DNA of 64,000 nucleotides from Squalus acanthias. Taxonomy: Eukaryota. The stretch covers positions 73,408,001 through 73,472,000 of the forward strand of contig CM059430.1 of NCBI GenBank assembly GCA_030390025.1, in the 5' to 3' direction. The position numbers were made by a program, and so were the translations under genes. A model generated the notes under the pieces. The model saw nothing but the letters and a program-made list of their open reading frames with translations, was not told the origin of the DNA and did no database searches. Every line of letters starts with the position of its first letter. The stretch's first letter is position 1. Shown here piece after piece: positions 303 through 63,998 of the stretch.

Positions 303-718
303 ATGACTTCAGTAAGTAAGGTTTTTTTTAGACAGGAAATGAACAGACATGAGCCCATGAATTTCCTCGGAGCTGCCCCGCGCCCCACCCACCCTCCCGC
401 CCGTCATCGCAACTTCCGCTCTGACATCGACGGGTAATTAGTTTATTCCGAGGAGAAGCTCATAAACTGCCCTTGTCATACGCTCAAACTCAAAATTTTA
501 CACCGATCTCCCACCGATGTTTCTGCAAAAGACCTGGGCACCCCTCAGGAATCCACGGCCAAACTGCTTAATAAATATATTTATATAAAGGTTTGCTTTC
601 ACGAAATAGTTAAATGTTGAGCAGCTGATTACCAATGACTGTTAGTCATAACCTCTCATTACGTGGTGCTTCATTTCTTTCGTTACTATTTGTATCAGTG
701 ACGGTGAACGATTCAGGC
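303..718. repeat. Diverged copy of 63590-63998 (probable paralogous intron)
   Basis: Colinear shared blocks: gacaggaa.tgaacagacatgag, ggagctgcccc, gggtaattag, gatctcccaccgatgttt, taaatgttga, ctatttgtatcagtgacg. Confidence 0.8.
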
Positions 719-900
719 TACTGATGCATTCCCGTGAACTTAACTAAATGTTTTTATAATGGGAATCTTTTTTAATGGCACATTTGGGATAGCGTAATTT
801 ATAATGTTACTGTATCACCTTGATTTGTTTAACATTAATCCGAGGTACTGGAAGGTTTGGTGGGTAAACTTCCCATCCAGAAAAGAGCTAATACACAAAT

Positions 901-1623
901 GGGATGGATTTTCCAATCGGAGGCTTCCTGCGTGCGGATGCCTCCGATCGGAAAAAAATATATGCACTTACCTGCTGGCTCCATAGTTCCCGAGACTTGA
1001 GATCCTGGGCCTCTGCTCTACGAAATGCGCAGAGTCCCAGGTATCCCAGGGGCGCATGCGGTTCGCAAGCGACCCTGGGATCACGTTGGCCATGGGGAAC
1101 CAATCAAAGAAGGGAATCCTCCTTCACACATTTGACAGGTCCTCTGTTCACGGATCAGACAAAAGTATGAATGGTGATCAATTAAAAACACAGTAAAACA
1201 TTCAATATATATTAGTTAACAACACATTAAATTAAATATTTTAAAAAAAATTAAATTTTTTGAGAAAATCATTAAAGCTTTTGAGCGGGTCTAAAATAAA
1301 CTTACCTTTTTTAAAGCTATTTTAAAATTATAAATGAGTGAAAACATTGTTTTTCAAACACTTATCCTGGTAAAAGCAGGTCTTACGCCTTCTTTTAGTA
1401 AGCGTAAGATTTTTAATGGATTTCAGCTTGCGGAAGTTGTGCTGAAAGCGCAACTCCCTGCTCGCGGAAGCCCTTTGCCCGGGCAGGCGGATGATGTGTC
1501 AAGAGGATTCTTGACAGATCGCAAGTGCCGGGTTTTAGTGCATGCCTGAAATCGGCACTTGCAAGGCTCCTACGGGTGAGTAAACACCTCCTACTCACCC
1601 GTGGGGGTCCGAAAATCCGACCC
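901..1623 (+). mobile_element. MITE family B (PIF/Harbinger-like)
   Basis: TIRs gggatggattttc / gaaaatccgaccc, AAT duplicated on both sides, internal homology to 49871-50618. Confidence 0.8.
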
Positions 1624-2127
1624 AATAATAGAATAATGTGCGCGTATGGTTGCCCCTTTCTTCTGCTTTACCTTATGGGGACGATCCCGCAAACATCTGA
1701 GAAATGCTCTAAACCGCCGCAGACATTGCAACCTGACTTTCGCAACGGGAGTGGAGGTCTTCACTCAGAGACTCGTAGAATGTCCGTGGAGTTTCTGAAG
1801 CAGAATTTCACATTTTGGTGCATATTCCTTATGTGCTCATTCTTTCATGGGGACACGACGATTAACACCCGCCTGTGCTATGGGAAGGGACAATAAAAAA
1901 GCTCTTCTACTTCTAATATCTGGACAAATGTCCGTGCTGTAAACTGCAGGTTGCGGTCCGTCTTTTCCGTGTGTGGAAATGTCACCCGAAATCCTTTAAG
2001 CTGGTGCATGATGAATAGATACTCACAAAGCACAAACTGGGGCCGGCCGTCCATGTTGACGGATCTCAGCAGAGTCAACATTTTCTGCAAAGACCGAGGA
2101 AAACGGAAAAACAAGCATACTAATTAC

Positions 2128-2433
2128 CTGAAATGTGCATAAGATGATGAACACTGGCTACAGTCTGGAGAGAGATGTGTGATACCTGACATGTATAATT
2201 CGTTCCGCTCCGCAAAGGACCTCTTTCATTGAGAATACTGGAAACTTCAAACATTCGCGCTGGATTCCGTTTTTTCATTTGTTCCGTGCCCGTCAGGATT
2301 TCCGATCCATTTTTATACCAACTGATGTTTAGCTTTTCCGGGAAAAACGAAGCCGTTTTACACACAAGAGTCAAAGAAGGCGATGGCTTATTTCTAAACA
2401 CGATAGTTGAAATCCGCAACGGCGTCGGAGGAA
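2128..2433 (-). CDS. Gene A exon: C1-set Ig domain
   Basis: Acceptor ttttttcaacag|TT, donor TCAG|gtaatt, 306 bp, phase 1-1. C1 motifs LTLVCKTASFFPEKLNISWYKNG, FEVSSIL and YTCQVSHISL (YxCxVxH). Confidence 0.92.
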
Positions 2434-3789
2434 CTGTTGAAAAAATAGAAATCAGTTGTTATTTAAACTTAATGGGGGTGAAATTGGTCTTGAACTGTAG
2501 CATAAAACTGTCGATAACATATCAATGGAAAGTAAATTCTGACGGGGGTTGGGGGAGGGAGATCGGATTGTTACTTCACTGTAATTGCACTAGGGATGGC
2601 CGACTTCAGTTATGTAGGGAAACTACAGAAACTGGGATTCTTCTCCTTAGAGGCAGAGAATATTAAGTGGAGGTTTAATAAAGGCGTTCAAAATGAGAGG
2701 GGTTTTTTGATAAGGTAAATAAATGGAAGCTCTAAATGCAGACTGGTCGTTAACCAGAAGACACAGAATTAAGGTGAGATCAGGAGGTTATTTTTAAGCA
2801 GCGTGATATTATGAACTGGAATTATTATGACAGGAAATGTGCCGCTTTATGTTGATTTGTAGAAGATTGTCATACGGATCTTCAATTTCCGCTGAGTGTT
2901 TCTGATCTCCCATCATAACCTCGGCTGAAAATCTCCTGCCCGAGAACCCCTTAGAAAATCTAGGTCACGTGAGTTGGGATTCTGATGGTTCTATCCATTT
3001 ATTCTATTTGAATTTGGATTATTAAATGTGTTTTTTCTCTTTTAAATGCCAGTATGGAAATTTTCTCAACACTTTATCTGGTGAGGCATTCCATAGACTA
3101 AACACCTTCTGTATAAAAATACATCCCAACCACGTCCGTCGTTTTTTTTGGTGATGATGCTAAATTTATCACCTTTGGTTATCCACTTACTAGGCAGTGT
3201 AAATTGCATTTTCTTACTTACTTTTCAGAATCCTTCATCATTTAAAACACCTGAAAAAGATCTCGTGTTAACTTTAACTGATCTGGGCAAAGTGGCCTAA
3301 TTTCTATAGCATTTTCTTATTACCTTACTCTCTCATCCCCTATATCAATTTAGTGCTGTTTAACCCTCGCAATGAACTTGACATCCTCCCCAATGTAATG
3401 CCCCCAAACTTGTACACATTTTACTAACTGGAGTTTACCCATGAGATTTGTATATGATTCAGTAAAACAAAAGCATTTGGTGTCAATTCTTCGATATAAA
3501 GAAGCCTAGGGACCTGAAAATCTGCATGAGTTCGATTGGTTTCGTGCCTCTTCTCCAGCAGGACATGGGCAGTGAAACTTTGCAAAGGGAGAGTTTCTGT
3601 CATTTAGATATTTCTCCAGGGGTTGAGCTGGTAAAGGCGTTACAGTGGGAGATATGGTAAATCTCCACTATAGCTGGGGCCTACAATTTGACGTTTTTAC
3701 AGCTTTGCTTATTCCTCTTGGCATATTATCAAACTTTGTATCGGAACTTGGAAATGGATCTGCTGTTCAATTTGCTTTTTATTTGTTTT

Positions 3790-4170
3790 TAATTCATTCG
3801 AGGCATGTGATCGTCTTTGGCACGTCTGGCATTTATTGTCCATTCTTAATTAACTTATAAAAGTGGGGGTGAGCGGTTTGATACTACTGAAAGGCTTTCG
3901 AACTGCTTCAGAGGGCGATTGAGATTGAACCACATTGGTAAGGGACTAGAGCCACATTTAGGCAAGATCGGGTAAGGAGTCGAGTTTCCTTCCCTAACGG
4001 ATATTGGTGAACGAATAGGATTTGACGGCAATCCACTTACATCATAATTTATTTCCATATGTTTCTGCTAAATTCAAATTTTCAAACTGTCAGGGTGGGA
4101 TTTGAATCATTCCCAGGATTACTAGTCCAGGGCCTAGATTGCTATACCAGTAAAATAACTGCCACCCCAC
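3790..4170 (-). mobile_element. tRNA-derived SINE, degenerate
   Basis: Reverse-complement similarity to 31400-31710 (ggattactagtccag, gggatttgaa, tttccttccctaa) and a LINE-derived tail. Confidence 0.6.
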
Positions 4171-4231
4171 TGTATCTAATGCTTTTAATCTCATTTTTCT
4201 TCCCCACAAAATGAACATATATCGACACAGT

Positions 4232-4885
4232 GGCCCAGAAATTAAAGACTGAGTGTTGACGCGGGGGTAAGGCTTCCCCGCGATCTCTCACTCCGCGTTG
4301 GATTTTTCAGATCCAGCTCGCACGAACTTGATGTTCTGGACATCAGCTGGGCAGTGCTTGCGTATCTCACCGGCGTAGTGAATTCGTGCGAGCTGTGGGA
4401 TCACGTGACTCAGTTAGAGCCAATGGCAGCACACCATCTTCCATTCATAAGTTTCACAGAAGTGCTGTGAAAGCTATGAATCTTACACACCCCCAAAATA
4501 ACAGCTAAACCTCAATTAAATAACAAAAAACCATCACATTCATAAAATAAGTATAGTTAAATAAATTAACCATTTTAAATAAAAAATTAAATTTTTGAAA
4601 AAATTTATAATCTTTTAAAAAGTTATAAAAATAAACTTACCTGTCTTTAAAGTCTCTAAAAAAGATATACCTGTTAAAAAAAATTCAAAATTATACTTAA
4701 TTCACTACTTACCTTGTTAAAAGTGGGTCTTACTCCTCCATTTTTCATTTCTAAAATCATCCGTCCTGACCTGCGCGTCCAAAGCACTAAGTGCACAGCG
4801 TGAGCACAGACTGTAGCGCGCACACGGTGCACCGAGGAACCGCCCCCAGTGCGTACTCTCGCGTCGCGGGACTAATTTTTGGGCC
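4232..4885 (+). mobile_element. MITE family A (PIF/Harbinger-like), in the V-C1 intron of gene A
   Basis: TIRs ggcccagaaatt / aatttttgggcc, AGT target duplication, homologous to four other copies in the window. Confidence 0.88.
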
Positions 4886-5149
4886 AGTATATTTTATTTG
4901 ACTGGTTCTAATTAATCTTCTTACCTATCTATATCCTCAATAAGTTATATACAGTATTCTCTACAGTGAACCACATCTCCCTATTCTGTCTGTTCTATCA
5001 ATTTTTAAAGCGTGGCCGTGCAAGTGGTGTTCTCCCAATTTACACCTTATCGTCTGGGCCCGGTAATTGCGCCGGCCTGCCGCAGTGTCTGACATCAAAT
5101 AAAAGGAAACTCTAAATGGGAATGAATTGGCGACACGTCCGTCACCGCA

Positions 5150-6070
5150 CTTGGTGTGCCAATCAAGCGGGCTGCTTTGTCATGGATGGTCTCGAGCTTC
5201 TTGAGTTTTGCTGGAGCTGCACTCATCCAGGCAAGTGGAGAGTATTTCATCACACTCCTTACTTGTGACTTGTAGCTGGTGGAAAGGCTTTCGGGAGTCA
5301 GGAGGTGAGACACTTCACGCGGAATACCTAGCCTCTGAACTGCTGCTGTTGCCACATTATTTATGTGGCTGCTCCAATTATGTTTCTAGACAATAGTGTC
5401 TGCCCAAGATGTTGATGGTGGGGGATTCGGCGATGGTAATGCCGTTGAATGTCAAGGGGAGGTGGTTAGACTCTCGCTTGTTGTAGACTACATTGCCTGA
5501 CAATTCTGTGGCGCGAATGTTACCTGCCTCTTATCAGCCCAAGTCTGAACGTCGTCCAGGTCGTGTTGCATGCAGGCATGGAATGCTTCATTATCTGAGG
5601 AGTTGGGAATGGCGCTGAACAATTTGCAGACCTCAGCGAACATTCCCATTTCTGACCGTAAGTTGGAGGGAAGGTCATTGACGGTGGGCCGAGAACACTG
5701 CCTTGAGGAACTCCTACAGCGATGTCCTGGGACTGTGATGTTTGACCATTAACCACCACAACCATCTTCATTTGTGCTAGGTATGACTCCAGCCAGTGGA
5801 GCGTTTGCTCCCCCGGTTCCCATTGATTCAGTTTTACTAGGGCTCCTTAATGCCACACTAGGGCAAATGTTGCCTTGATTTCAAGGGCAGTCACTCTCAC
5901 CTCACCTCAGGAATTCAGCTCTTTTATCCATGTTTGGACCAAGGCTGTAATGAGGTCTGGAGCCAAGTGGTCTTGGCGGAACCCAAACTGTGCATCAGTG
6001 AACAGGCTATTGATGATTAAGTGCCGCTTAATAGCACTGTGAATGATACCTTCCATCAGTTTGCTGATGT
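5150..6070 (-). mobile_element. CR1-clade LINE RT fragment
   Basis: Broken frames with QFGFRQDH and [10 protein letters not shown]; same family as 33492-35947. Confidence 0.85.
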
Positions 6071-6613
6071 TGTTACGGTAATGAATGGTTAAACACATAT
6101 TGAGAAGGAACTAGCATTGAATGAATAAATTACCTTTACTGATGTTACATTTCTACCTTTCAATGAATGGCTTTTAGTGAGTTTTTTATTATTGTGGGAT
6201 CTCTCCCATTTGGCATGCTTGGCACCGGACACTCAATGGCAGCGTGTCATGCGTTGTATGTGATCCGCAATTATCTTTAGGGGGGTTCTCGGTCGTCCGT
6301 TTTAAACAGCGAGGATGGGCCACGGAACACCCGAGAATAAAAGAACGCGTTACTTGCATCAGTTTGAGAAATCTCATGTAATTGGTTTCCTCACGTTTTT
6401 CTATTGCAGAAGCCGGGTTCTGGAATTATTGTAATTAGATTGCACGGTGAAAGGAAGCAGGGAAAATATTCATTTAATTTCCTACGACGAAACTGGAGAA
6501 CTGTCAATCTGTGACATGTGATTAGATTCTGAGTGCAGCAGCAGTTACAGGGCCGTGTGATTTAAATCTATACAGAATGTTACTGCACATACATATACCG
6601 GCGCTTGAGTTTA

Positions 6614-7402
6614 NNNNNNNNNNNNNNNNNNNNNNNNNNNNNNNNNNNNNNNNNNNNNNNNNNNNNNNNNNNNNNNNNNNNNNNNNNNNNNNNNNNNNNN
6701 NNNNNNNNNNNNNNNNNNNNNNNNNNNNNNNNNNNNNNNNNNNNNNNNNNNNNNNNNNNNNNNNNNNNNNNNNNNNNNNNNNNNNNNNNNNNNNNNNNNN
6801 NNNNNNNNNNNNNNNNNNNNNNNNNNNNNNNNNNNNNNNNNNNNNNNNNNNNNNNNNNNNNNNNNNNNNNNNNNNNNNNNNNNNNNNNNNNNNNNNNNNN
6901 NNNNNNNNNNNNNNNNNNNNNNNNNNNNNNNNNNNNNNNNNNNNNNNNNNNNNNNNNNNNNNNNNNNNNNNNNNNNNNNNNNNNNNNNNNNNNNNNNNNN
7001 NNNNNNNNNNNNNNNNNNNNNNNNNNNNNNNNNNNNNNNNNNNNNNNNNNNNNNNNNNNNNNNNNNNNNNNNNNNNNNNNNNNNNNNNNNNNNNNNNNNN
7101 NNNNNNNNNNNNNNNNNNNNNNNNNNNNNNNNNNNNNNNNNNNNNNNNNNNNNNNNNNNNNNNNNNNNNNNNNNNNNNNNNNNNNNNNNNNNNNNNNNNN
7201 NNNNNNNNNNNNNNNNNNNNNNNNNNNNNNNNNNNNNNNNNNNNNNNNNNNNNNNNNNNNNNNNNNNNNNNNNNNNNNNNNNNNNNNNNNNNNNNNNNNN
7301 NNNNNNNNNNNNNNNNNNNNNNNNNNNNNNNNNNNNNNNNNNNNNNNNNNNNNNNNNNNNNNNNNNNNNNNNNNNNNNNNNNNNNNNNNNNNNNNNNNNN
7401 NN
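6614..7402. other. Assembly gap (N run)
   Basis: Continuous Ns. Confidence 1.
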
Positions 7403-7461
7403 AGCTATCATTATTTCTGAGTACATAAACGACATTTAGATTTGTATGACACGCCACTTAC

Positions 7462-7782
7462 CATATACAACTAGTTCTATGCCGCATCCGTCAACAAACA
7501 AGAATCTCCTGCAATTAAATCTGCAGCGATAGACGCCGGAGTCATTTACACATACATTCTGAAGATGCAGATAAAAAGTTCCAAACGGTAAAATATGCGA
7601 TTCGGTGCGATTGTCGGAGGTTATTGCGACAGTTGAATTGTAAACTTCCTTCCTCCAATAAACAGTTATATTCTCGTTCGTCATAAAGCCAGTTAAGTTT
7701 CCTCGTAAGCTAACATTCCCGCCTCTGATCACCGCAACAGAATTAGCGAAGTGAGTAACAGTCAGAGGAACAACTTGGGAAA
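7462..7782 (-). CDS. Gene A exon: V-set Ig domain with germline-joined J-like motif (VJ type)
   Basis: Acceptor tttcttacag|TT, donor TATG|gtaagt, 321 bp, phase 1-1. Motifs GGNVSL, VYWRK, LHLQNVxxNDSGVYRC and DGCGIELVV (GxG-xx-L-x-V). Confidence 0.9.
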
Positions 7783-7965
7783 CTGTAAGAAATAGATATT
7801 GCATCAGAATATTTACTATGAATACAGTGTGTTGCGAACTGGTAAATAGCAGAACAAAGCACAATACGGCAATGTAAGTGAAACAATTAATGAACAATTT
7901 TTGTATATTTGTCCACAATTCTCTACTCCAGAACCGGACCTTGTTCTATGAAATCAGTCAAATAC

Positions 7966-8032
7966 CTGTGCAGAAAATCCCCATCGTGGCACAATACAGA
8001 AATAGAATATTCCGAATCAGAACTGAACCCAT
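7966..8032 (-). CDS. Gene A exon: signal peptide (MGSVLIRNILFLYCATMGIFCT)
   Basis: ATG at 8032, 22 codons with a hydrophobic core, then phase-1 donor ACAG|gtatt. The phase matches the V exon acceptor about 180 bp downstream. Confidence 0.8.
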
Positions 8033-8497
8033 AACTGAGTTGAGCTTTGCAGCTACTCCGATAAAACAACTGTTACAATGATGTGCATGGATGTAACTCA
8101 TTTAAGCGGTAATATAGCCCACAGAGGATGTGGGCTGTGCCGAGTGTCTGAACAGCCCTCAGTGCGCAGCGTTTCGGTTCGCTGTTCCACTACTGCAACT
8201 CTCACACGGAAATTTAGAAAGCACAGATTAGTTCAACGCACAGATAGAAATAAAATTGCTTTAAAATCGGCTTATACTCGTGATTTCAATATCTGAAGAG
8301 CAAAACTCACATCTCTATAGCTCCTCTTGGTTAAAAATAGGGCAATATAAAAGGATATCCCCGAATGTAAGGTCGGAAAACGACTTACAACAGGCAGCTG
8401 TAAACTGCCAGCGGAAGGCGAAGAACTTGTAATGGAACAATATACGGAAATACTGTGCAAGGGAAATATTTTGAGAAAGCTTGTAAAGGCAAAATGC

Positions 8498-8602
8498 GAG
8501 TGAGAGAGAGAGACATAAAGAGAGTGAGAGAGGGGAGGCGGGAGAGAGAGAGAATGAGAGAGAGAGGGAGGTAAGGGGAGAAAGGTAGAGACGGAGAGAA
8601 GA
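8498..8602. repeat. GA-rich degenerate microsatellite upstream of gene A
   Basis: Purine tract of gagagagag/gggag units. Confidence 0.8.
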
Positions 8603-9659
8603 AGACCGGGAAATTATATCCCGAGTGCAAGTGGGCTTCGTAGATTTCCGGTAAATAACAATTTCAATTTACTCGTATTTTTCTGGAACGTTTGTCAACC
8701 CTTTTGTGAGATAAGGCTGCACATTGTAAATTTAGGTGTAGCAATTTGTGAAGTCCATTTGGTGTGTGTTTCAGAGATAAACCAGCTCAATGTCTGTCTA
8801 AAATAGAACATGAGCAGACAATGAACTATTGGTGAACCTGGCACAACGTGTGTTACTTAGCGCATAATTTAATCTGAGATTAAAAACGTTAAATGTTTGA
8901 CCTGCTGGTACAGAGCAAAGCTTCAATCAATTTGATCTGCTCCTTGCATGTGGCCTTTACCAGACAAATTAGATAATCACAATTCATTTTTGAAACAGAT
9001 GGATGTGTGTGACGCAGTTCAACATCAGACATCTTCAAAGTATCTTAAATAAATTGGTTAGAAGGGGATATTTTGTTGTTCCTCACAATTTACCGAAAAC
9101 ACATGTCAAAAAGTAATTGGTTAATCGGCAAAATAACTGTAGATTTTAATGGAACAGATTCACATGACGCTCTAAACGCTAGGCCAGTTATCTAGACATA
9201 CATAATAAGAAGTATATCGCAGACTGTTAAAAGAATTTCAACGTTACTTTCCCTATTTTCTCTTTCTTATGCAATCTTCTGAGCACCTAATAATTGCACA
9301 AGCTGAATTATAATTCCACGGATAATAGAAAGTTCTTGATGCCTTGACAAAATGTCTAATCTTAGATCCCCCACTTTCAAAACCCCGTGCGTCTTTGTAA
9401 GCTATCCAAACGTGACTGGGCGGGGAATCAACAGCCTAGCCTAATTCCATATTAACGAGCGGATTTGCCGGGAGGTTCCCGGTCATGCGTCTGTCCTCAA
9501 GAAAATGAAACGGCCTCAATTACCCTATATGCCATTTCACCGGTATTCCCGTTCATCTTCTGCCAAACTGCAGAGGATCGAAGGGATTTTGGTGTGCAGC
9601 TATTAAAACCACTAAAAGCTAGTCGACATGTACACTTGTAATCAAACAATTAACGGAAT

Positions 9660-10330
9660 GCTGGGCGTCCTGATTTCAAACCTGAATGGCCTAGCTCTAA
9701 TTTTAAGGACGTACCCTTTAGTTCTCGATTCCTGCAGCACAGGAAATAGTTTCTCTGCATCGACCCCATGGAATCGCTTCATAATATTAACCACCTGAAC
9801 GAGATCACCCCTCAAACATTTAAACTCAAAGGAATACAAGCCAAGTTTATGCAAAGTCACTCATAATTTAACACAATAAACCATTCTGATGAATCTACGC
9901 CGAGGCCAGCATATATCGTTCCTGGGGAGCAGTGCACAAAATTGAACGCAACACTCCAAATGGTGTCTGACCAAGGTTCTGCACAATTGCTGCATAACTT
10001 CCGCCGTTTGTTTCCCATACCTTGAGATAAAAAGCCAACATTACATTGGCCTGTTTGATTACAATTTGTTTTGTTCATTAGGTTTTATTGATTTGTGTAC
10101 ACGGACACATAAATCGCTTTGCTCCTCCTCAGGTCCTGGACTCTCGACTTTAAGAAAATATTCTGATTCATCCTTCTTAGATTTAAATTGAAGGACTTCA
10201 CACTTTCCCAGATTTGAAGTTCACCTTCTATAATTTAGCCCACTCACATCATCTGTTTAAGTCCTATTGTTTCATGCTCCCATCTGAACAACATACTGTG
10301 CCTACCAACTTAATGTCACCTGCAAATTTG
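9660..10330 (-). mobile_element. Old CR1 3' fragment
   Basis: LGLYSFEFKCLRGDLVQV resembles the CR1 ORF2 C-terminus. Confidence 0.75.
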
Positions 10331-10344
10331 GATATACAACAACA

Positions 10345-13865: not shown

Positions 13866-14122
13866 TAATTAACAGACTATTTACTAACCTCGCTGGAATA
13901 AACTTAAAAATTATAAGAAAGCCAAGTCAACAAAAAAATAGTGCCAACTGCGTGTTGTTTTCTCGTAGAAAGCTTTCCAAGAATTCCAACGTGCTGATCA
14001 AAAATGGAAGCCCCGAATAAAAATACCGCACAGAGGCCAAAGAAGATAGGGACCAAATCATAAAATGCTGGATATATTCAGCAGCTCATGGTCTATCTAT
14101 GGTTACAAAAGACAAAATTGAG

Positions 14123-49779: not shown

Positions 49780-51240
49780 TAAACAGATTTAAGGTAATTG
49801 GCAAAAGAGCCAGAGTTTAGATAAGGAGATATTTTTTAACACAGTAAGTTATTATGATCTGGAATATATTGGCCCATATTTTAAGATCGCAGGGCTCCCG
49901 CGGGCGGAGGCCTGCGATCTGGAAAAATCTGAGCCCTTACCTGAGGGCTCCCCGGACGCGCACAATTCCGATGCAGGACCTCACCAAATTCCAAGTGCGC
50001 AGGGCCCAGGTATCCCAGAGGCGCATGTGATTCGCAGCGTCCCTGGGATCAAGTCGGCCATGGGGAACCAATCACAGAAAGGAATCTCCTTCCATACAAA
50101 GACAGGAAGACCTGTCAAATATATGAATCAAGATCAATGAAAAAACTTAGTAAAACTTAAAAAAACAAATTTTTAAACTCACTCTTTTAAAATTACTTGA
50201 AATTACAATAAATTAAGTTTAAAAAAACAAATTTGAAAAAAATAATTAAAGTATTTTACGGTGCTAAAAATAAACTTACCTTTTTTAAAAAGTATTTTTA
50301 AATGATAAATCAGTGACAACATGTTTTAAAACTTTTTTTTCTACTCTCATCCTGCTAAAATCAGGCCTTACACCTGCTTTTAGCAGGCGGAAGAATTGTA
50401 AGGGTTTTCTGCGGGCGGAGGATCTCCAAAAAGCGGAACTATCTGCCGGCAGAAGCCCTTCTCCAGGGCAGCCCGAGGGTCTGTCAAGCGGATTCTTGAT
50501 AGAGCGGAAATACCGGTTTTCAGCGCATGCGTTGTGCATCCCTGAAACCGGCATTTCCGATGTCCTACGGGTGTGTGCACAGCGGGTAGCCACACAGAGT
50601 GCTCGGAGTTTCCGGCCCATTGTCTGAAGCAGTGGTGGAAGCAGATACGATAGTACATTTCAAAAGGAAATTAACTATGCGCTTGAAAAGGAAAATACTA
50701 TCAGGGTTATGGAGAAAGTGAAAGGGAGTTTGAATAATTTGATAGCTTTCCAAAGAGATGGCACAGGTACGATCGGTCGAAAGATTCTTCTGTGTTGAAA
50801 GATTCTATGATTCTATGATAAGCCTGTTAACAAGGAGCACATGCAGAGTCTAACATAAGTGTAATGCTCGAATACAATACCAGTGTGAGACAGCAAATAA
50901 GTTTAAGGGGATATTTAATGACGGCTTTCAAGATCATAAAGGGTTGTGTTCCAGTAAATAAGGAGATTTTTTTTCCACTGAGAGAATAATTGGTAACAGG
51001 TGGACACAGATATAAAGTAATTCTCAAAAGAGCCGTAGCTGAGATGATGAATAAAATGTTACGCAGCAAGTTATTATGATCTGGAATGCACTGCCTTAAA
51101 GAGTATTGGAAAGAGATTCAACAGTAAATTTAAAAACGAATTTTAGTAATTACTTATTTTGAGAAAATTTCAGGACTGTGGGGAAACGGCAGAGGAGTGA
51201 GACTAGTTACATAGCTCTTTCAAAGAGCCGACCCAGGTTG
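49780..51240 (+). mobile_element. Old CR1 3' relics
   Basis: Two occurrences of ttattatgatctggaat with CR1 3'-end-like context; gattctat tail near 50800. Confidence 0.65.
49871..50618 (+). mobile_element. MITE family B copy nested in a CR1 relic
   Basis: ATT duplicated; shares cccaggtatcccag..gcgcatg..ccctgggatca..ggccatggggaaccaatca with 901-1623. Confidence 0.82.
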
Positions 51241-51254
51241 GAAGGACGAAATAT

Positions 51255-54200: not shown

Positions 54201-54350
54201 GTACATTCTGTCCATTCCTGTCAGACTCTGGTTATCATTACCCCATTCACTATCCTGCATTATTATCTTGTCCTTTCTCTTTAACTTTGTAAAGTTCCCC
54301 CACCTGAATCCTCCCCCTACTATTTAGTGTAAAGCCCTCTCTACAGCCCT
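51255..54350 (-). mobile_element. CR1 copy (APE+RT, decayed)
   Basis: AITETWLQGD, LGKSDH, KTPGPDG, LLRPHLEY motifs. Confidence 0.92.
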
Positions 54351-55882
54351 AATTATTCGACGAATGGTTTCCTTCTGTTCTGTTTGTTTAAATGATTCTA
54401 TGTAATTATGTGATAAGTTGTTAAAGACCACACGAAGTATCTAACTGAAGTATATGTCGCGTATGCCATACCAGTGTGCAATAGCGGAGCTTGACAGCTG
54501 TTTCAGCAGGGGAATTTTTTACACATTTGGATTGATTTAATTAATTGCGCCCAGCGATTGCTTTTTGAACGAACGATATACAGGTTAGCGGTAGGGAAGA
54601 TATCTCATTCAGATCAAAATTGCGATCAAGCTGTGCTACACACGGAGACCTGGGAGTGTGAAAATATCAGGTTTTTTCTCTCATTGGTGCCGAAGTCAAC
54701 TTTCTCAACTCGGCATTAATAAGGCAATAATAGCTTCAAAATGGGGTTGGTAATCTTACCGCCGTTATAAACAGACTGGCTGGGCAGAGCTCCTGCCTAC
54801 TCAGGTGCTAGGTCCTTTTAAGATGCAAATCGTAGTCGTATATGTGCAGAGGACCCTTATTGCCATTTTAGGACCTAACAGTGTGGAGCTTGTGCCCTGC
54901 ACTCGCCAACCACTTTTACTGGCTAAACGGCAAACGTTTCTCCAAAAAGGCCGGTTGCTCCTCCTCGGTCTATAAAAAACAATCTATGACGCTGCTCTTC
55001 AAGTTTTCCGCTTTCAGAATCGCAACCTCCACTCCAGGACTTAAATTGCTGCGCTGGGTATTTTCCGCCTACCCCTCTGATAATACACCATCCTGAATCC
55101 GGTCGAAATGCATCGACATGTCCCTCTAGGTCGAGCAAAGCGCCGCTTCTATTAAAATGAAGCCAAAGCATCAAAATGGTTCAGGGTTTTGTCCTGCCGG
55201 ATTGGGCCCTCCGCTGACACAAAGGTTAAACATTACCCCAAAGATTGCGCAAGCGAATATGCAGTTAATTGTTGTTGGAAACAGTTGGGGAAGGCAATGG
55301 GTAACGTTTTACTCAGTGCACGCCTGTCAGTTCAGTGTTTAAGACTCGCAAAATTATGTTAGACACACATCGGGGCAAAGGTAATATAGTATTTTATCTT
55401 AACCATAGATAAAATGGAAATTTCACTGTGAATATACTATCCTATTCCGTCATTATTTTACAAAAATAAAAGCGGTTGTCGGTTTCCAATCGGATTAATC
55501 TCCCTAATTGCTGATCAGTCCACATTTTGGAATATGAGAGAGATGCTGTTTGGACACACGAACGATAAGAGAATCGATGGGGGTGAAAGTTGTAAAACTG
55601 TTGAAGTGTTACGATGCAATTGCGTTGTGGTGCAAGACGAATTTCACGCTATAATTCTAAAACAACGGGGAGTAAATTGGTCTGGGGTGTACTCTTACTG
55701 TTCAAGAATAGCAGGCTGTTACAACTGAGACAATCATTATATACGCTGCAGATTGGGCGGCTACAAGCAATGTACGAAAAAAAAATGCTTCAAACACACA
55801 TTGGTTTAAAAATATATTAAATTGTGTTACACATATATGATGCAGGAAATAGTGTTACATTTAGATATGGAATTATCAATAC

Positions 55883-56091
55883 CTCCGCGTGCACTTCGTT
55901 CGTTTTCATCTGCTTGGGGTTTGAACGCTTCTCGGGGTCAGTAAACTTCACAGTTGCATAGGTGAGTTGTTCATCTGTGACGCCTTCCTGAACCTGCAAC
56001 TCTACTTGCACAATGTTCATTATATTATAGGACAGATTGAGATCGGTTGTAGAATTTAAATTGAATCGTGATACTTGCCGGGGTTCCATTT
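55883..56091 (-). CDS. Gene B exon: cytoplasmic exon 1 with ITIM LTYATV
   Basis: Open frame ...VTDEQLTYATVKFTDPEK...EVHAE. Phase-1 acceptor aattttag|AA at 56091 fits the TM exon; alternative acceptors would start the exon at 56004 or 55993. Phase-0 donor GAG|gtattg, or read-through to the stop at 55817. Boundaries uncertain. Confidence 0.68.
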
Positions 56092-56779
56092 CTAAAATTC
56101 AATAGTGTTTTATTTAATTGCTGTTCATAAATAGTGTTTATATATATTTTTACTTTGATACCCGCTCATCGATGTAACTTACACTTATTCTCAATGCAGA
56201 ATTGCTAATGACCCCCAACTAGAATGTTATATTTGTATTGGTAGCATAATTTAATTCAAAAATGCACATCTCTCCGTAGTGCCCGTATGTCTTTGACTAT
56301 TCATTAAAAGGTCACGTTAACTCGCTCCCAGTTAGGTGCATTGTTCGTCTTATTATGAAAAAACAGTAGAAGTTTTACTCTTTTGGACTTCTTCATGTAG
56401 ATTATTTTCTCTTTCGCGAATTTCATTTTCAACGGTATAACAGGAGGATTATACATCCGCACAGGAAAACCCTCATTGGCCTCCCTGATTCTGTAACCTC
56501 CTCCAACGTTGCAGCCTCTGAGAACTCTGTCTTTCTCCAACTCTGCCTTATTTTGCATCCCGTATTCATTGACCACATGGCTGACATCTGTGCCGTTAGC
56601 CCATTAACCCTAAGCTCTGGAATTCACTCATTTATCAATCGGCTTCTGCACCACCCTTTGCTCTTTTAAACCTATCCTAGAACTCGCCTCTTTGATCAAG
56701 GTTTTGGGAAGCTCTCTTATTAACGCCAACTTTTGCACCATGTCAATTCTTGACAGGCTAAGCTCCTTTGAATCAAAGA

Positions 56780-58610
56780 AACAAAGATTCATGATGCACA
56801 GGATGAGGACAGTCTGTCCATCGTGCTGGCTTTTGGTAGAGCTATTAATTTAGTTCTACTCCCACCCTCTTTCCCAATAGCCCTGTTATATTTTTCCCTT
56901 CAACTGTTTGTCCAATTCCCTTTTGAAAGTTTCTGTTGAATTTGATTCCACCACCCAATCAGTCAGTAGATTACAGATCACAACTCGCTTGTTTCCTCAT
57001 GGCGCCTCTGTTTCATTTGCCTATCACCATAAATATATGCACTCTGATTACCGACCCTTCTGCCACTGGAAACAGTTTCTGCTTATTTACTGTATCAAAA
57101 CCATTCCTGACATTGAACAGCTCTATCAAACCTCCTCTTTATCTTCTCTGCTTCAATGAGAACAACCACGCTTGTGCAGCTTCTCTAAGGCATGGATATC
57201 TTTGCTAAAGTGTGCTGCCCAGAATTGAAAACAATACTCAGGCTGAGGCCTAACCAGTGTTTCATACAACTTCCTCGCTTTTCTAATCTATGCCTTCTCA
57301 ACTTATGTTGGCACCTTCAACTATTTGTCTACAAGCACGCTAGGTCTCCATGCTCCTGTAACCATTTAAAATGTATGATTTATTGTACACTGCCTCTCCG
57401 CATTCTTTGTACCAAAATGTATCACTTAACACTTCTCTGCATGACATTTCATCTACCATGTGTCTGCCCATTTCAATAGCCTTCGTATCTGTTCACGAAA
57501 GCGGTTACTATTGTTATCTTTGTTTGTTACATTTCGGAGCTTCCTGTCATCTGCAAACTTTGAAATTATGGCCTGTTTGCAATGTCCAGGTCATTTATAT
57601 ATTTCAAAAAAAGCAGTTGTCCTTAAAACCGACGCCTGGGGAACACCGTTTTATTTTTCCCTCTGCAACACTACCCTCTGCATTCTGTCCCTTGGCCAGT
57701 TTTGTATCCACATGGCCATTGTCCCTTGAATTACATGGGCGTTAAATTTGCTAACAAGTCTAGTATGTGTTACTTTGTCAAATGCCTTTTGAAAGTACAT
57801 ATACACAACATCAACCACACAACCCTCATCAACGCTTTCTATCACTTCAACAAAGAAATCGATAGAACTCGTTAAAAACGATTTCCCTTTAACAAATCTG
57901 TGATGATTTTTATTAGCCAATACATTTTTTAATGCCAATTCAGTTCGTCCGGGATTACAGTCTCTAAAAGTTTCCCCACCATAGATGTTAGGCTAACTGG
58001 CCTGTAATATCAGGGTTTATAACTCTCCCCTTTTTTAGGCAGCTGTGTAACGTTTGCAATCCTCCTGTACTCTGGCACCACCCCACCTCTAAGGAGAATT
58101 TGGAGATTGTGGCCAAAGCCTTGGCAATTTCCACCCTGACTAGAATGTCTCCCATCCGGACCCGGTGAATTTTCAACTTTGATGACTGGCCAACTTTTAA
58201 GTATCTTCTGTTTATGTATTTTAATCCTCCCCAATATCGCTGCTACTTTCTCCGTTCGTGCTACATTGCAGCATTCTCTTCTCCAGTGAAGAGACCTTAA
58301 ATTTCTAATGTTATACCTCAGTCATGCCCTCTGACTGCACAGGATTTTTTCCTTTTTGGATCCTCATCGGTCTCACCCTTCTGCTGACTTAACTGTTACT
58401 ACTGATATATTTATAAACTGCATTTGTGTTCACTTTTAATTTAGCCGCTAATGTATTCATATTGTCTGTTTTTTAGATATCCTCTACCCTCATCAACCCT
58501 TTCCGTTTCTTCATCAAATAACTCAGTCAAGTTAATCGGATACGATTTGCCTTTAAGAAATCAGTGCTGACTTTCATTTATTAGCCCATACTTTTCAAAA
58601 AGCCAATGAA
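56780..58610 (-). mobile_element. Older CR1 fragment(s) in a gene B intron
   Basis: SPGPDGRH and VDVVYMYFQKAFDKV. Confidence 0.82.
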
Positions 58611-59781
58611 GCTTCTTGATATGTCTTTTCATCATCAAAATAATTACATCAATTCAAATTGTTGCTGCACGCGTGGGCTGCATCTTGAAATGATTCAGCG
58701 GAAAATGTTGGCTTGGTGAAGCCAAACGGTGGAGGAATGTTTTAACATGAAGCCAGAATAGATTACCTAGAGACACAGTGGAGGCCATAATTGTCAGTAA
58801 TTCTGAAAAGAAGACGGGTAGCTTTCCTCGTAAGATGTCTTGACGCATTACCATGATTTCCGCCATTGTTCTCCTGATATCTAGCGGCAATTTTGGAAGG
58901 AATCTGCTAGAATCCCACAGAAATAGACGAGTTAGTTAAAACCCGCTATTGACGTGTTTTTCTGGGGAATTTGCCAATCTTGCACTGAACGTACAGGGCA
59001 TGGGTAATATATCGAAGTATTTCAGGTTCTACAGGGGCATGGTCAACCGAGGAACAGCAAGAACTACCGAGAACACGGCTGCAGCTGCTCGAGATTCCTA
59101 AACACCTATTAAGGGACAAGAATATTCTTTTGCCCCACAAGAAGGTCAGGGCACTTGAGTCCACTCAGGTGCTGAAATATAGCAGACTCCTTCGGCGCGA
59201 GATTTATTGAACACCTAAGGAAATGGCGTAAATGGCAAGAAGCAGCTGTTAACTCAGATTCTCAAGTTCTTGGGCAAAAGGAAGCATAATCAAGCAGAAA
59301 TTCTCCCCCCAAGTAGCTGTCAGTTTGTATTCGAGAGTTGTACGTCTTTTAAGGGCGATTAGTAAATTGGGAGGAGAAATTCGAATGAGTTCTCCCGACC
59401 CTCCACATAATAATTGCAGCACCTCCCAAGGAAAATGGCATAAACAGCAATTTTGAGCCAGTTATGCTCTTTCTCTGTTTGTTAATTCAGATGCCCACTG
59501 AAGTTATGTCGAGGGACTGACATGATTTCCATGAAATTTCATAGCCCATCTGTCCAAGGTGAGTTACAGTAAAACATTCCGCAAAATTTATCTCCTTCTC
59601 CAAAAGCCACATTAGCCGGATGCATAAATTGTCTGATTTACAGAAGAATCAGCAACTTTTCTTTAATCTGATCGAATCTGTTTATCTTCAAAGGTGCAAC
59701 TTTTTTCTTCCGTTTATTGTTGATTTAATATTTTGCAGATGCAACAAATCATGATTACAATAAAGAAGATTTGAATAATAC

Positions 59782-59895
59782 CTCTAAATCTAGGCAATTT
59801 AAACAGTTTAAATTTAATGACCACAGATAGTAGAATTATCAGTCCAATTCCGAGACAGAGAAACATGTACAAGAGTGGAAAGCCACTGTCGATAT
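59782..59895 (-). CDS. Gene B exon: transmembrane segment (DIDSGFPLLYMFLCLGIGLIILLSVVIKFKLFKLPRFR)
   Basis: Acceptor tttattttgcag|AT, donor AGAG|gtatt, 114 bp, phase 1-1. About 20 uncharged hydrophobic residues followed by a basic stop-transfer stretch. Confidence 0.82.
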
Positions 59896-60112
59896 CTGCA
59901 AAATAAACAGAACTGTCACTCAAAACCTAACCGATCAGTAACAATTATAGTATTAATGATACACGACTCGGATAATGAAAACTCTTACTCTGATGGGAAA
60001 GGAAATATAAGATTTATACCGCAATAAAATATATTAAACATAACTGTCTGCGGGGTTCTCCCTTGATCTCGCCATAAGATTAGCAGGAGGCCAGTGGAAC
60101 ACCCACAAAAAT

Positions 60113-61545
60113 CATAGAATCTTAGAAATTTACAGCACAGAAGGAGGCCATTCGACCCATCCTGTCCGTGCCGGTCGACAAAGAGCTATCCAGCCTAATC
60201 CCACTTTCCAGCACTTGGTCCGTAGCATTGTATTTTACAGCACATCAAGTGCATATCAAAGTAATTTTTAATTGTGATGAGGGTTTCTGACTCTACCAAC
60301 CTTTCAGGCAGTGACTTTCAGATCACCTCCACTCTCAGAGTGAAGACATTTCTCCTGGAATCCCATCTAAACCTCCTACCAATTACTTTAAATCTATGCC
60401 CCGTGGTAATCGACCCCTCTGCTAAGGGAAATAGGTCCTTCTTATACATTGTATCCTGGCCCCCCATAATTTTATACACCTCAATTAGTTCTCCCCTCAG
60501 CCTCCTCTGTTCCAAAGAATACAACCCCAGCCTATCCAATCATTCCTCATAGCTAACATTCCCCAGCCCAGGCAACATCCTCGTAAATCCCCTCTGCACC
60601 CTCTCTGGTGCAATCACATCCTTCCTGTAATTTGGTGAACAGAAATGCACGCAGTATTCTAGCTGCGTCCTAACTAGTGGTTTATACAATTCAAGCATAA
60701 CCTCTTTGCTATTATATCCAATGCCTCGCCTAATAAAGGCAAGTATTCCGTATGCCTTCTTAACCACTTTATCTACCTGACCTGCTATCTTCAGGGATCG
60801 GTGGACATGCACTCGAAGGTCGCTCTGATCCTCTGCACTTCTCAGACTCCTTCCATTTATTGTGCATTGCCTTGCCTTGTCAGTCCTCCTCAAATGCATT
60901 ACCTCACACTTCTCCGGATTGAATTCCATTTGCCAATGTTCTGCCGACTTGACGATTCCATTGATATCTTCCTGCAGTCTACAGCTTTCTTCTTCATTAT
61001 CAACCACACAGCCAATTTTTTGATCATCTGCAAACATCTTAATCATGCTTCGTACATTCAAGTCCAAATCATTGATATATACCACAATAATTAAAAAACC
61101 CTCTACGGAGCCCTGTAGAACACCACTGCAAACAGCCTTTCAGTCACAAAAACATCCTTCGACCATTATCCTTTGTTTCCTGCCTCTGAGCCAATTTTGG
61201 ATCAAACTTGCCATTTTGCCTTGGATCCCATGGGCTTTTACTTTCGTGACCAGTCTGCAATGCGGGATCTTATCAAAAGCCTTGCTAAAATTCATATAGA
61301 CTACATCAAACGTACAGCCCTCATCGACCCTCCTTGTTACCTCCTCAAAAAATTCAATCAAGTTAGCCAGACACTAACTTCCCTGAACAAATCCATGCTG
61401 ACTGTCCCTGATTGAACCATTCCTCAGAAATGTTTCCAATACTTTTTCCACCACCGAGGTTAGACTGACTGGCCTTTAGTTACTCAATCTATTCCTTTGT
61501 CCCTTTTTAATGAACATCACCACGTTAGCAATCCTCCAGTCCGGC
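60113..61545 (-). mobile_element. CR1 5'-truncated copy in a gene B intron
   Basis: [34 protein letters not shown]; tail at 60113. Confidence 0.92.
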
Positions 61546-63589
61546 AGAAATGGCAGCATCCCAAGGAAAAAAATAGTTTAAATATCCATTTTTAATTCTC
61601 TACATTATTTCTCTAAAGTTTCTTTGATCTCAAGTCCGAACTGATGGTACTAAACAGTGGAGCCCAATGAAATTGCAGTTCCATGATCTCTACACAACCT
61701 GTGTCAATTGTCTTTGTTTGAATGTTTCTCTCGCTCTCTCTGCTATTCTACTTCTGTGTCCTTTTATATCCCCTTTTGTTGTCTGTCCTTAAGATACTTT
61801 TGCTCTCTCTCGGCACTCTTCTGCATCCTTCTCTGCATATATGCTCTATCACTTGCTGTCAAATGTGATGGGTGGCACAGTGTTTTTTGAACGAGAACAT
61901 TATTGACTAGTGTTTGAAGGGTGCACATTGGATGACTTTACAGGGACACTCTGGCCCTTACTGGCTCCTTTCCCAGCCTCAAAACAATTATTCATCCCCA
62001 CACATTTTACTTCGCTAGCTTCTCCCAAGTGTTCGTTTTTCAACCGAAACCTTCCCTTTATATCACTCCTCACTCAGATCCAAACACCCTGCCTCTTCCT
62101 TATTGAAATATCCATTCAGCCACTAAGTAATCATGTCCACTTGCTCCCATTACATGTAACCTGACATGCTTTTCAGCTGCTCTGCACTCCAATTCAATCC
62201 TGCTGGCTATCGGGTGAGCGGTCTAAGGCAACCTTAAACTTTGCTAGTTTCCTCCCTCCGACTATTGTAATTCTTTTCTATTCCTTTCCTTCGATGATGC
62301 TGTATTTGGTTTGAAAAGTGAAAATACTTTTGAAATAAGCCACGTCAGCATAAGCGAAGTCAAAAAATGACAGCTCTCTCTAACTATGTCTCTGGCCCTA
62401 ATTTTGACTTTTATCTCTGTGCGAAACATGGGCAAATGCGAATCGGTCGACCGTTTTCACCTCAATCGATTTTGTGCTGATTTGCTATCACCCATTTTTA
62501 GCTGTGCGAGTAGATATAAAATTACCCACTCTGTCTCTGATGTCGCACATTTTAGCATGTAGAAATTCTGTCTCACATCTGTGATAAATTAGCATTTATA
62601 CTTTATAAATGTCAAGCAAGCATAATTCACAGTTAGCATTAGTGTGACTCGAAGTTCAAAGGGTTATTCTTTTGAAAATGAAATTCATATTAACCTGAAG
62701 AATTACTCTCTTCTGTCCCTCGGTTATACCACTCTCTCCTGTGTACCTTTCTCTCTCTCAATCTCTGACATAAGCCTTTCTCTCTCATGCACTGTTCCTC
62801 AGTTTAATAAACTTTCAAAACATAATGGACCATTTTAAACCAAACACTAATATCGTTGTGTAATATTTTTTGTAATATCCCACTTCGCTCTCTCGCTCGC
62901 TCACACACATATAAACACACGCGTGGTCGAATCAAGTCAATCGCTTTTTAAACACTTAATATAAACTTTTCAATAATGAATATTCCAACATTATTCCTTT
63001 TTCTGGATGAATCAACAACTGATTAAATGCTGCAGAAAGACGGCACACGCTCAGAAAGCATGGCCTGAAGTCAGCTCAGAGAGCGACATTTCATGGCAAA
63101 ATATCAATTCAAATCTTTTTTTTCTGTGACTGGCTGAAGAATTCAAGTAATAGCTTAATGAAGGCAATCAGAGATGGATAGGCAACTCAATTAATACTTC
63201 TCATCATGCTTTAGTGAAATATCTGATTTTGAATTTGAATATTGTATAATCCGTTAACTTGACTTTAGACATTTTATTCGCTGCACTACAAATGGAAGAT
63301 CAACATTTTTCAGCTTAAAAAACTGACAGATAAATTTGAGTGATTGCTCGGGAAAGCTATTTCCTCATCAAATCGTGCCATTACAGGGTCAGGTTTAAAA
63401 AGTAATTGTGTACAGCTTATTCCATTCGTCCGCCATAACTTCTGCGGAAGAGCCGTGAAATTCAGTATTTCCTGGATTTCCTCGGCTATTCCCACGAAGA
63501 TATGGCGGACGAGTGGTTGAGCCCGGCTGAAACTCATGCCATTGTAAATGTGCAGCGAGCATCGCGTAATGTTAATCGGTGACAAAAAT

Positions 63590-63998
63590 ATGACATCAAT
63601 AAGAAAGGGTTTTGTCAGACAGGAAGTGAACAGACATGAGAGGAGTTGATTTCCGCGGGAGCTGCCCCAACCACCGCATCAACCGCTCTTACATCGGTGG
63701 GTAATTAGCTTAATCCGGGGAGAAACTCAGAATCAAGCTTTTTCAGCCCTCTTCATCCGTCTTTGCACAAAATGTTCCACTGATCTCCCACCGATGTTTG
63801 GACACCAGAAAAGGACAATCTCTCATAAATCCCTGGTGAACAGTTTTAGTAAATATATTCATATAAACGACTGAAGTCACTGAACAATTAAATGTTGAAC
63901 AGTTGTTCACCGATGACTGTTCGTCAGAACTTCTAATTACGTGAAGTGATTCATTTTTATCGTTGCTATTTGTATCAGTGACGCTGAAATACATCAGG
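63590..63998. repeat. Diverged copy of 303-718 (probable paralogous intron)
   Basis: Same colinear blocks in the same orientation, offset about 63.3 kb. Confidence 0.8.

What the first reader, a model, noticed from the sequence alone, without database searches (positions are those of the whole stretch)
303..63998. Window ends are homologous, defining a duplication unit of about 63.3 kb
Seen: 303-718 and 63590-63998 align colinearly in the same orientation but are clearly diverged. The first lies 3' of the C1 exon of gene A and the second 5' of the TM exon of gene B. Inference: both are the C1-TM intron, so gene B's C1 exon should lie about 0.7-1.5 kb past the right edge and gene A's TM exon a few kb past the left edge. 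Retention of this block while the flanks were remodelled may point to an intronic regulatory element (ETS-like ACAGGAA[A/G]T is kept in both copies).
Basis: partly seen in the sequence, partly recalled or inferred. Interest (0 to 1): 0.7.

Follow-up and report, generated by a model that had tools for sequence, protein, structure and literature searches.

The report
Tandem immune-receptor genes with swapped halves
The two ends of the window are the same stretch of intron in two neighbouring copies of a shark-type immune-receptor gene, within a 14-copy array whose members are mosaics of outer and signalling halves, likely made by misaligned crossovers; the stretch itself is ordinary intron with no special conservation.

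Summary
The homology is real (70.8%, E 1e-50) and both copies lie in the C1-TM intron of tandem V-C1-TM receptor genes on the minus strand. Both predicted exons exist: gene A TM 1.5 kb left of the window; gene B C1 3.0 kb right (not 0.7-1.5 kb). The block is no transposon: 13 loci, all within 0.77 Mb. But it is not a retained island: A and B align over about 25 kb, the block (79.5% by substitutions) is no better kept than other non-coding parts (76-81%), and the ETS-like 9-mer is unremarkable and absent in an outgroup paralog. 63.3 kb is only the offset at this marker (array spacing 15-159 kb); the whole window lies inside one younger two-gene cassette. The copies are mosaics of three ectodomain and three tail lineages with junctions in this intron, fitting a three-gene ancestor expanded by unequal exchange that put two ectodomains on an arginine-bearing, ITIM-less tail. 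Gene B and all six such tails are disabled; 2 of 14 copies look intact. The scan noted this family, and a similar chimera, on other DNA before.

The parts
303..718 (.). Block A: part of the C1-TM intron of gene A (ectodomain lineage A)
332..340 (+). ACAGGAAAT, ETS-like 9-mer; exact ACAGGAA[A/G]T in 11 of 13 copies; not specially conserved
2128..2433 (-). Gene A C1-set exon, open, AG/GT, phase 1-1
   Evidence: (Pfam C1-set E 3e-11)
7462..7782 (-). Gene A V-set exon with the J-like G-x-G strand in the same exon; open; lacks the usual B-strand cysteine
   Evidence: (V-set E 9e-7)
7966..8032 (-). Gene A leader exon (ATG at 8032)
8173..8202 (-). Best-conserved 30-bp non-coding window between lineages A and B (97%), 140 bp upstream of the ATG; candidate promoter element
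49349..49459 (-). Second tail exon of gene B (82% to gene A's second tyrosine-motif exon at about W-10144..-10034); bounds by offset, frame not checked
55883..55993 (-). First tail exon of gene B, phase 0-0, with ITIM-like LTYATV
59782..59895 (-). Gene B TM exon, no charged residue in the membrane segment (tail lineage I)
60112..61552 (.). Dispersed repeat inserted in gene B's C1-TM intron (LINE-like by appearance, not classified by a tool); the B/R hybrid junctions of two other copies fall in its counterpart
63590..63998 (.). Block B: same part of the C1-TM intron in gene B (ectodomain lineage B); gene B is a pseudogene (V frameshift, two stops in C1, both exons beyond the right edge)
63619..63627 (+). 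ACAGGAAGT, the copy of the 9-mer in gene B
1..64000 (.). Whole window lies inside one younger two-gene cassette (front half of gene A + spacer + gene B; about W-310 to W67-103k) that recurs at 90-92% identity

Best explanation
The two window ends are the same piece of C1-TM intron in two neighbouring paralogs of a V-C1-TM receptor array, which likely grew from three ancestral genes by unequal exchanges that broke inside this intron. Shown: homology over the whole gene, 13 block copies all between C1 and TM positions, three ectodomain lineages (A, B, X) and three tail lineages (U, I, R) in the order A-U, B-I, A-R, B-I, B-R, A-R, B-I, A-R, B-I, A (V only), B-I, B-R, B-I, X-R, and two junction sites in the intron. 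Inferred: an ancestor A-U, B-I, X-R; a homologous crossover between A and X about 490 bp from the block duplicated the cassette and made the A-R hybrid; a non-homologous join near the TM exon made B-R; later rounds multiplied both. Inferred further: U and I tails are inhibitory (ITIM-like motifs), the R tail (membrane arginine, tyrosine motifs lost) would be activating, so the exchanges would create paired receptors. The block is passively inherited intron.
For: Colinear A/B homology over about 25 kb at 66-86% in unique sequence. 14 matches at 13 loci, all C6:73.408-74.173 Mb, all same strand, each 5' of a TM position and 3' of a C1 position where those exons survive. A control 1-kb piece of another intron hits the same 13 gene copies at 77-81%. 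Block identity A x B 79.5% against 76.4-80.7% for seven other non-coding segments. Trees of tail and of block+C1 reject each other (AU p 5e-38 and 7e-90, 13 shared copies). Three A-R copies share one switch at W-187/-185 inside a stretch where the parents are nearly identical; two B-R copies switch within about 0.3 kb of the TM exon. As the model predicts, the outermost halves are single-copy: no other copy of tail U above 81% genome-wide, and ectodomain X has no close copy among the 14. Arg codon in 6 of 6 R tails and in 0 of 5 I tails that keep a TM exon; first-motif tyrosine in 5 of 6 I tails and 0 of 3 R tails that keep the exon; a shared stop in the second tail exon in 3 of 3 R tails found.
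Against: All 6 R-tail copies are disabled, and only 2 of 14 copies have all five scored exons intact, so the array may be mostly neutral decay; dN/dS between lineages is 0.4-0.9 in 12 of 14 pairs and above 1 in two V pairs, on few sites. The R tails are one clade, so Arg and tyrosine loss are one event, not six; an outgroup paralog has both Arg and the ITIM, so Arg is probably ancestral. No phase 1-to-0 linker exon between TM and the first tail exon was found in gene A, gene B or four other close copies, so an in-frame ITIM tail is not shown even for gene A. Non-chimeric controls also gave chi-square 31-47 at W1041 (two above their permutation maxima), which I put down to a misaligned repeat; chimeras gave 162-268 in 6 of 7 tests and 43 in the truncated copy. 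Three stretches of the array (73.972-74.056, 74.072-74.098, 74.128-74.164 Mb) were not fetched. Long gene-conversion tracts could mimic some junctions.
Confidence: 0.85

Rival explanations
1. The block, or the ETS-like site in it, is an intronic enhancer kept by selection.
For: Exact 9-mer in 11 of 13 copies; the best 20-50 bp window around it is in the top 1.4-2.3% of non-coding windows; within-lineage A identity of the block is slightly higher (94.3%) than other non-coding parts (90-93%); GGAAGTGAAC is one base from an Ets-IRF composite site (consensus recalled, not from a call).
Against: 20% of 4566 9-bp windows are as conserved as the motif; the 30-bp peak ranks 14th of the non-overlapping peaks in 4734 columns, about what any 400 bp holds; 9% of 400-bp windows equal the block. 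The motif is not at the homologous place in the outgroup paralog at 73.206 Mb, where only the other half of the block aligns. It occurs 6 times in the window, four of them outside the blocks. Most carriers are pseudogenes.
Confidence: 0.06
2. The window is one fixed 63.3-kb tandem unit whose ends are the block.
For: Median spacing of block copies is about 64 kb; old 70-80% homology also covers parts of the spacer (W27.8-49.6k against the 3' flank of gene A), so gene plus spacer was duplicated.
Against: Offsets vary from 43 to 81 kb between homologous markers, spacings from 15 to 159 kb; the younger 90-92% unit spans both blocks and extends to W67-103k.
Confidence: 0.07
3. The block is an old dispersed transposon that inserted independently near both ends.
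For: 58% of the window is dispersed repeat by an opposite-strand test; the genome search warns that it skips very common words.
Against: All 13 loci are in the array at the same intron position and strand; 0% of either block has an opposite-strand hit in 614 kb.
Confidence: 0.02

Closest known systems
Chondrichthyan V-C1-TM proteins auto-annotated 'tyrosine-protein phosphatase non-receptor type substrate 1-like' / 'SIRP beta-1-like' (P0001 Heptranchias, P0002 Callorhinchus; relatives in Heterodontus, Mobula, Leucoraja, Chiloscyllium)
   Same: One V and one C1 domain, TM, tyrosine-motif tail; 54% and 51% identity to gene A's C1; a gene next to the array has a V exon 80% identical to P0001.
   Different: This subfamily's V lacks the B-strand cysteine (10 of 10; 3 of 3 more distant members have it). 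The database names are automatic and inconsistent (SIRP-, B7H6-, tapasin-, Ig-lambda-like).
Mammalian SIRP family (SIRPalpha, beta1, gamma)
   Same: J-containing V plus C1-set ectodomain, clustered genes, ITIM and charged-TM forms (SIRP features recalled); SIRPalpha and gamma are among the PDB hits of the C1 (E 1e-11, 3e-9).
   Different: One C1, not two; Arg near the start of the TM, not Lys; Ig heavy-chain and UrIg2 chains score higher than SIRP; orthology, synteny and CD47 binding untested.
Paired-receptor clusters reshaped by recombination (CEACAM1/3 and Xenopus ceacam; KIR, Siglec, SIRP named in the same paper)
   Same: Like ectodomains on inhibitory and activating tails in one cluster, produced by recombination (PMC5112662, passages read).
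   Different: In Xenopus ceacam the exchange is conversion limited to the V exon between oppositely oriented genes; here whole 5' halves with tens of kb of flank move between same-strand genes, coupled to duplication, and every hybrid is now broken.
Non-rearranging VJ-C1 genes of the MHC paralogons (UrIg, NKp30, PRARP)
   Same: Unsplit V exon with J-like strand next to a C1 exon; UrIg2 is the top PDB hit of the C1 (E 6e-16, summed over several domains); these genes are discussed in PMC10751288 (passages).
   Different: Here a family of over 100 loci with ITIM-like tails; MHC linkage not tested; neither PMC10751288 nor PMC12227049 holds the word SIRP.

Membership tests
Tandem paralog array / segmental duplication | Colinear, same-strand homology across exons and introns | tested here: met
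Tandem paralog array / segmental duplication | Copies confined to one cluster at the same gene position | tested here: met
Fixed 63.3-kb duplication unit | Constant offset and period | tested here: not met
   offsets 43-81 kb, spacings 15-159 kb
Dispersed transposon | Unlinked copies on both strands | tested here: not met
Conserved intronic enhancer | Higher conservation than neighbouring non-coding DNA | tested here: not met
   79.5% against 76.4-80.7%
Conserved intronic enhancer | Motif kept in more distant paralogs | tested here: not met
   absent at the homologous place in the one outgroup where the block partly aligns
Conserved intronic enhancer | Open chromatin or reporter activity | not testable with these tools
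   needs ATAC-seq or reporter assay
Paired activating/inhibitory receptors | Near-identical ectodomains on tails of opposite type in one cluster | tested here: met
   A and B ectodomains each occur on ITIM-type and on Arg-type tails, by sequence only
Paired activating/inhibitory receptors | An intact activating member | tested here: not met
   6 of 6 R-tail copies disabled
Paired activating/inhibitory receptors | In-frame spliced ITIM tail | tested here: inconclusive
   tail exons open in gene A, but no linker exon found; no RNA holder listed
Paired activating/inhibitory receptors | Opposite signalling, adaptor binding | not testable with these tools
   needs cell assays
SIRP family | J-containing V-set plus C1-set domains | tested here: met
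SIRP family | V-C1-C1 ectodomain (recalled) | tested here: not met
   one C1 exon between V and TM
SIRP family | TM lysine in activating members (recalled) | tested here: not met
   Arg instead
SIRP family | Orthology by phylogeny or synteny; CD47 binding | not tested
   no tree with mammalian SIRPs was built; neighbours of the cluster not examined
Non-rearranging VJ-C1 genes (UrIg, NKp30, PRARP) | Unsplit V exon that includes the J-like G strand | tested here: met
   one 321-nt exon ending in G-x-G-x-x-L-V-V-Y
Non-rearranging VJ-C1 genes (UrIg, NKp30, PRARP) | Canonical B-F strand cysteine pair | tested here: not met
   B-strand Cys absent in 10 of 10 subfamily V domains
Non-rearranging VJ-C1 genes (UrIg, NKp30, PRARP) | MHC or MHC-paralogon linkage | not tested
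   not examined

The most novel reading that the evidence does not exclude
Cartilaginous fish carry a little-described family of over 100 non-rearranging VJ-C1 paired receptors in which the C1-TM intron is a recurrent exchange point: inhibitory receptors' ectodomains are grafted onto an arginine-bearing activating tail, each graft coupled to a cassette duplication, giving short-lived activating twins under pathogen pressure. This array records two such grafts (plus a V-exon graft nearby) in a subfamily whose V domain has dropped the canonical disulfide.
Probability: 0.3. Interest if true: 0.65.

Novelty: new member of a known kind. Interest (0 to 1): 0.33.

Why it matters
The finding as written is ordinary: two tandem paralogs share an intron. 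What the follow-up adds is a readable history of how an immune-receptor array in a cartilaginous fish grew and shuffled ectodomains onto different signalling tails, the process known from mammalian and frog paired receptors. If the R tail was a working activating module, the process reaches back to the oldest jawed-vertebrate lineage in a family built like a germline-fixed antigen-receptor chain. The weight is lowered because every hybrid here is broken and no expression is shown.

Tried and rejected
RNA: no RNA holder listed for leader+V; three same-species runs laid on 1900-6600 at 80% covered repeats and next to nothing of the C1 exon: uninformative. Protein search with the V exon against longer proteins: 0 of 99 candidates passed. 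Profile and fold searches of the V gave generic V-set hits and did not rank SIRP against NKp30, VNAR or TCR (model pLDDT 73). One search used exon bounds that were off by 1-13 bases, so its frame flags and dN/dS are invalid; one search is the corrected run (only the DNA printed is used). Linker-exon search with a polypyrimidine and donor filter found no candidate in 6 of 8 subfamily copies examined and one weak candidate in each of the other 2. Literature: 7 searches (listings only) showed no paper on this shark family; PMC12227049 and PMC10751288 and PMC5112662 were read as term passages only; a 2019 J Immunol paper on VJ-C1 genes (recalled) is not held, and subscription papers are not searched, so 'undescribed' is weak. 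Assembly artefact rejected: copies differ by 5-12% with many private indels. The 789 N at 6614-7402 lie in the V-C1 intron and were not interpreted.
Full report
Setting. The window is G000:C6:73408001-73472000 of a 3.7-Gb genome. All named homologs are from sharks, rays and chimaeras, so I infer a cartilaginous fish. W below means window coordinates extended past the edges. I fetched 614 kb of contiguous sequence around the window, two further pieces of the array and 12 more distant loci.

The observation. 303-708 aligns with 63590-63988 on the same strand at 70.8% over 421 columns, E 1e-50. The two 9-mers are there. A genome search gives 14 matches at 13 loci, all on C6 between 73.408 and 74.173 Mb and all on the same strand: three at 92-93%, the rest at 71-73% or partial. 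Neither block has any opposite-strand hit in 614 kb, whereas 58% of the window has. It is not a dispersed repeat.

The genes. Gene A (minus strand): leader 8032-7966, V 7782-7462, C1 2433-2128, TM W-1519..-1632, first tail exon W-6435..-6545, all open with AG/GT ends, and a second tyrosine-motif exon near W-10034..-10144. Pfam calls the two domains V-set and C1-set. Gene B: leader W75080-75014, V W74830-74509 (frameshift), C1 W67311-67006 (two stops), TM 59895-59782, tail exons 55993-55883 and about 49459-49349. So both predicted exons exist; gene B's C1 is 3.0 kb past the edge because of repeat insertions, and gene B is a pseudogene. The C1 exon finds 150 scored matches of 540 candidates, 129 of them in three blocks of C6 (61.1-62.8, 67.4-68.2, 72.4-76.9 Mb; my count; pieces and pseudogenes included), so this array is one subfamily of a very large cluster.

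No conserved island. With flanks in hand, A and B align colinearly from W-8938 to W15930 against W54448 to W79103, offsets 61.4-67.3 kb; the block looked isolated only because it is the one part present twice inside the window. Counting substitutions between lineage A (5 copies) and lineage B (8 copies), the block is 79.5% identical; seven other non-coding segments are 76.4-80.7%, C1 80.6%, V 72.6%, leader 87.2%. Nine percent of 400-bp windows match or beat the block. The 9-mer is exact in 11 of 13 copies, but 20% of 4566 9-bp windows are as conserved. Against my reading, the best 20-50 bp window around it is in the top 1.4-2.3%; yet it ranks 14th among non-overlapping 30-bp peaks in 4734 columns, and in the outgroup paralog at 73.206 Mb only the other half of the block aligns and the motif is not there. 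A control kilobase from the TM-tail intron hits the same 13 copies at 77-81%. The best non-coding peak is at 8173-8202, 140 bp upstream of the ATG.

No fixed unit. Spacings of the 13 block loci are 63.3, 74.6, 51.4, 62.5, 76.6, 15.2, 16.9, 37.8, 66.4, 76.0, 158.5 and 65.0 kb (my arithmetic). After masking repeats, old 70-80% homology also links the spacer W27.8-49.6k to gene A's 3' flank at offsets of 43-59 kb, so gene plus spacer was duplicated long ago and 63.3 kb is today's gene-to-gene distance at one marker. The younger duplications are different: chains at 90-92% run W-310..67354, W2852..99568 and W7405..102919 onto three places further right, and a shorter one onto a fourth. They carry the front half of gene A, the spacer and all of gene B. 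The window therefore sits inside one copy of a two-gene cassette that begins about 0.5 kb from block A.

Mosaic genes. Sliding identity and segment trees give three ectodomain lineages (A, B, X) and three tail lineages (U, I, R). Left to right the 14 copies read A-U (gene A), B-I (gene B), A-R, B-I, B-R, A-R, B-I, A-R, B-I, A (leader and V only), B-I, B-R, B-I, X-R, with one distant family member between the last B-R and B-I. The tail tree and the block+C1 tree of 13 shared copies reject each other (AU p 5e-38, 7e-90). The three A-R copies switch from X-like to A-like at W-187/-185 (chi-square 268, 220, 43), in a stretch where the two parents are nearly identical. The two B-R copies switch next to the TM exon (chi-square 162-253); there an R-type intron is joined without homology to the repeat that B carries at 60112-61552, at a different point in each copy, and the two tails are sisters with 100% support, so one join and a later deletion is likely. 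Three non-chimeric controls gave 31-47 at W1041, in a repeat at the end of the aligned data, two of them above their permutation maxima, so the permutation test alone is not clean.

Mechanism (inferred). Start with A-U, B-I, X-R. Because the genes read tail-first along the plus strand, a crossover between the C1-TM introns of X-R and A-U yields A-U, B-I, A-R, B-I, X-R: the observed left end, right end and cassette. A join between an R tail and a B ectodomain yields B-R. Further unequal crossovers and deletions give the rest. The model predicts that the outermost halves stay single: tail U has no copy above 81% in the genome and ectodomain X none among the 14.

Signalling (inferred). R tails have an Arg codon early in the TM in 6 of 6 copies, I tails in 0 of 5 that keep the exon, U has none; the first tyrosine motif is kept in 5 of 6 I tails and in U, and lost in 3 of 3 R tails that keep the exon; the second tail exon has a shared stop in 3 of 3 R tails found. 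An Arg at this place is typical of receptors that pair with FcR-gamma (recalled; also the lead in e1-9129839). Limits: the R tails are one clade; one outgroup has Arg and the ITIM together and another has Cys, so the R lineage specialised by losing tyrosines; all six R copies are disabled and only gene A and the B-I copy at 73.87 Mb have five of five scored exons intact; no phase 1-to-0 linker exon was found between TM and first tail exon; no RNA evidence was available. dN/dS between copies is 0.44-0.86 in 12 of 14 pairs and 1.3-1.8 in two V pairs, which fits weak constraint or decay.

Comparison. It works like a paired-receptor cluster reshaped by recombination (PMC5112662, passages). It resembles SIRPs in domain types and tails but fails two recalled SIRP features (one C1; Arg, not Lys) and orthology is untested, so I do not file it as SIRP. 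It shares the unsplit VJ exon with UrIg, NKp30 and PRARP (PMC10751288, passages). Seven paper searches listed nothing on this family; the library lacks most subscription journals. Earlier notes of this scan describe the same family and a similar C1-TM chimera 11 Mb away; my mosaic analysis preceded those look-ups, and I did not check their loci.

Verdict. Observation confirmed; intron placement right; fixed unit and enhancer not supported. An ordinary paralogous intron in a tandem array, with a well-resolved history of ectodomain-tail swaps: new member of a known kind, interest 0.33.

Noticed in passing
window 7462-7782 (-) and nine subfamily V exons (alignment A1): The V domain lacks the B-strand cysteine in 10 of 10 subfamily members; 8 of these have a Cys in the J-like G-x-G strand, and three outgroup copies lack the F-strand Cys as well. 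The model still folds as a V-set domain. A replacement F-G disulfide is a guess; distances were not measured.
   Followed up: partly
window 8173-8202: Best-conserved non-coding 30-mer between lineages A and B (97%), 140 bp upstream of the ATG, next to GAACCGAAAC on the gene strand, which resembles an interferon-response site (consensus recalled). A better regulatory candidate than the intronic block.
   Followed up: partly
L080:900-2180 (G000:C6:72.9999-73.0012 Mb): A gene 0.4 Mb left of the array has an A-type leader and V (85% amino-acid identity to gene A) on a distant C1 (51%): a third exchange, this time in the V-C1 intron.
   Followed up: partly
G000:C6:61.1-62.8, 67.4-68.2 and 72.4-76.9 Mb: 129 of 150 scored C1 matches lie in three blocks of one contig, many with a V exon 1-3 kb upstream: a family of over 100 V-C1 loci.
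   Followed up: no
L056-L057 and L055 (G000:C6:73.865-73.883 Mb): The B-I copy here has five of five scored exons intact but has lost the tyrosine of its second tail exon; best candidate, with gene A, for a working gene.
   Followed up: partly
window 10347-12278, 18276-19306, 20262-26361, 31814-40546, 42661-54334, 57198-61552: At least five families of dispersed repeats, both strands, 64-89% between copies, fill the spacer and introns; not classified.
   Followed up: no
window 908-1581 and W64164-66408: A related repeat sits just beyond both blocks (also at 49878-50576 and elsewhere) and accounts for part of the different block-to-C1 distance in genes A and B.
   Followed up: partly
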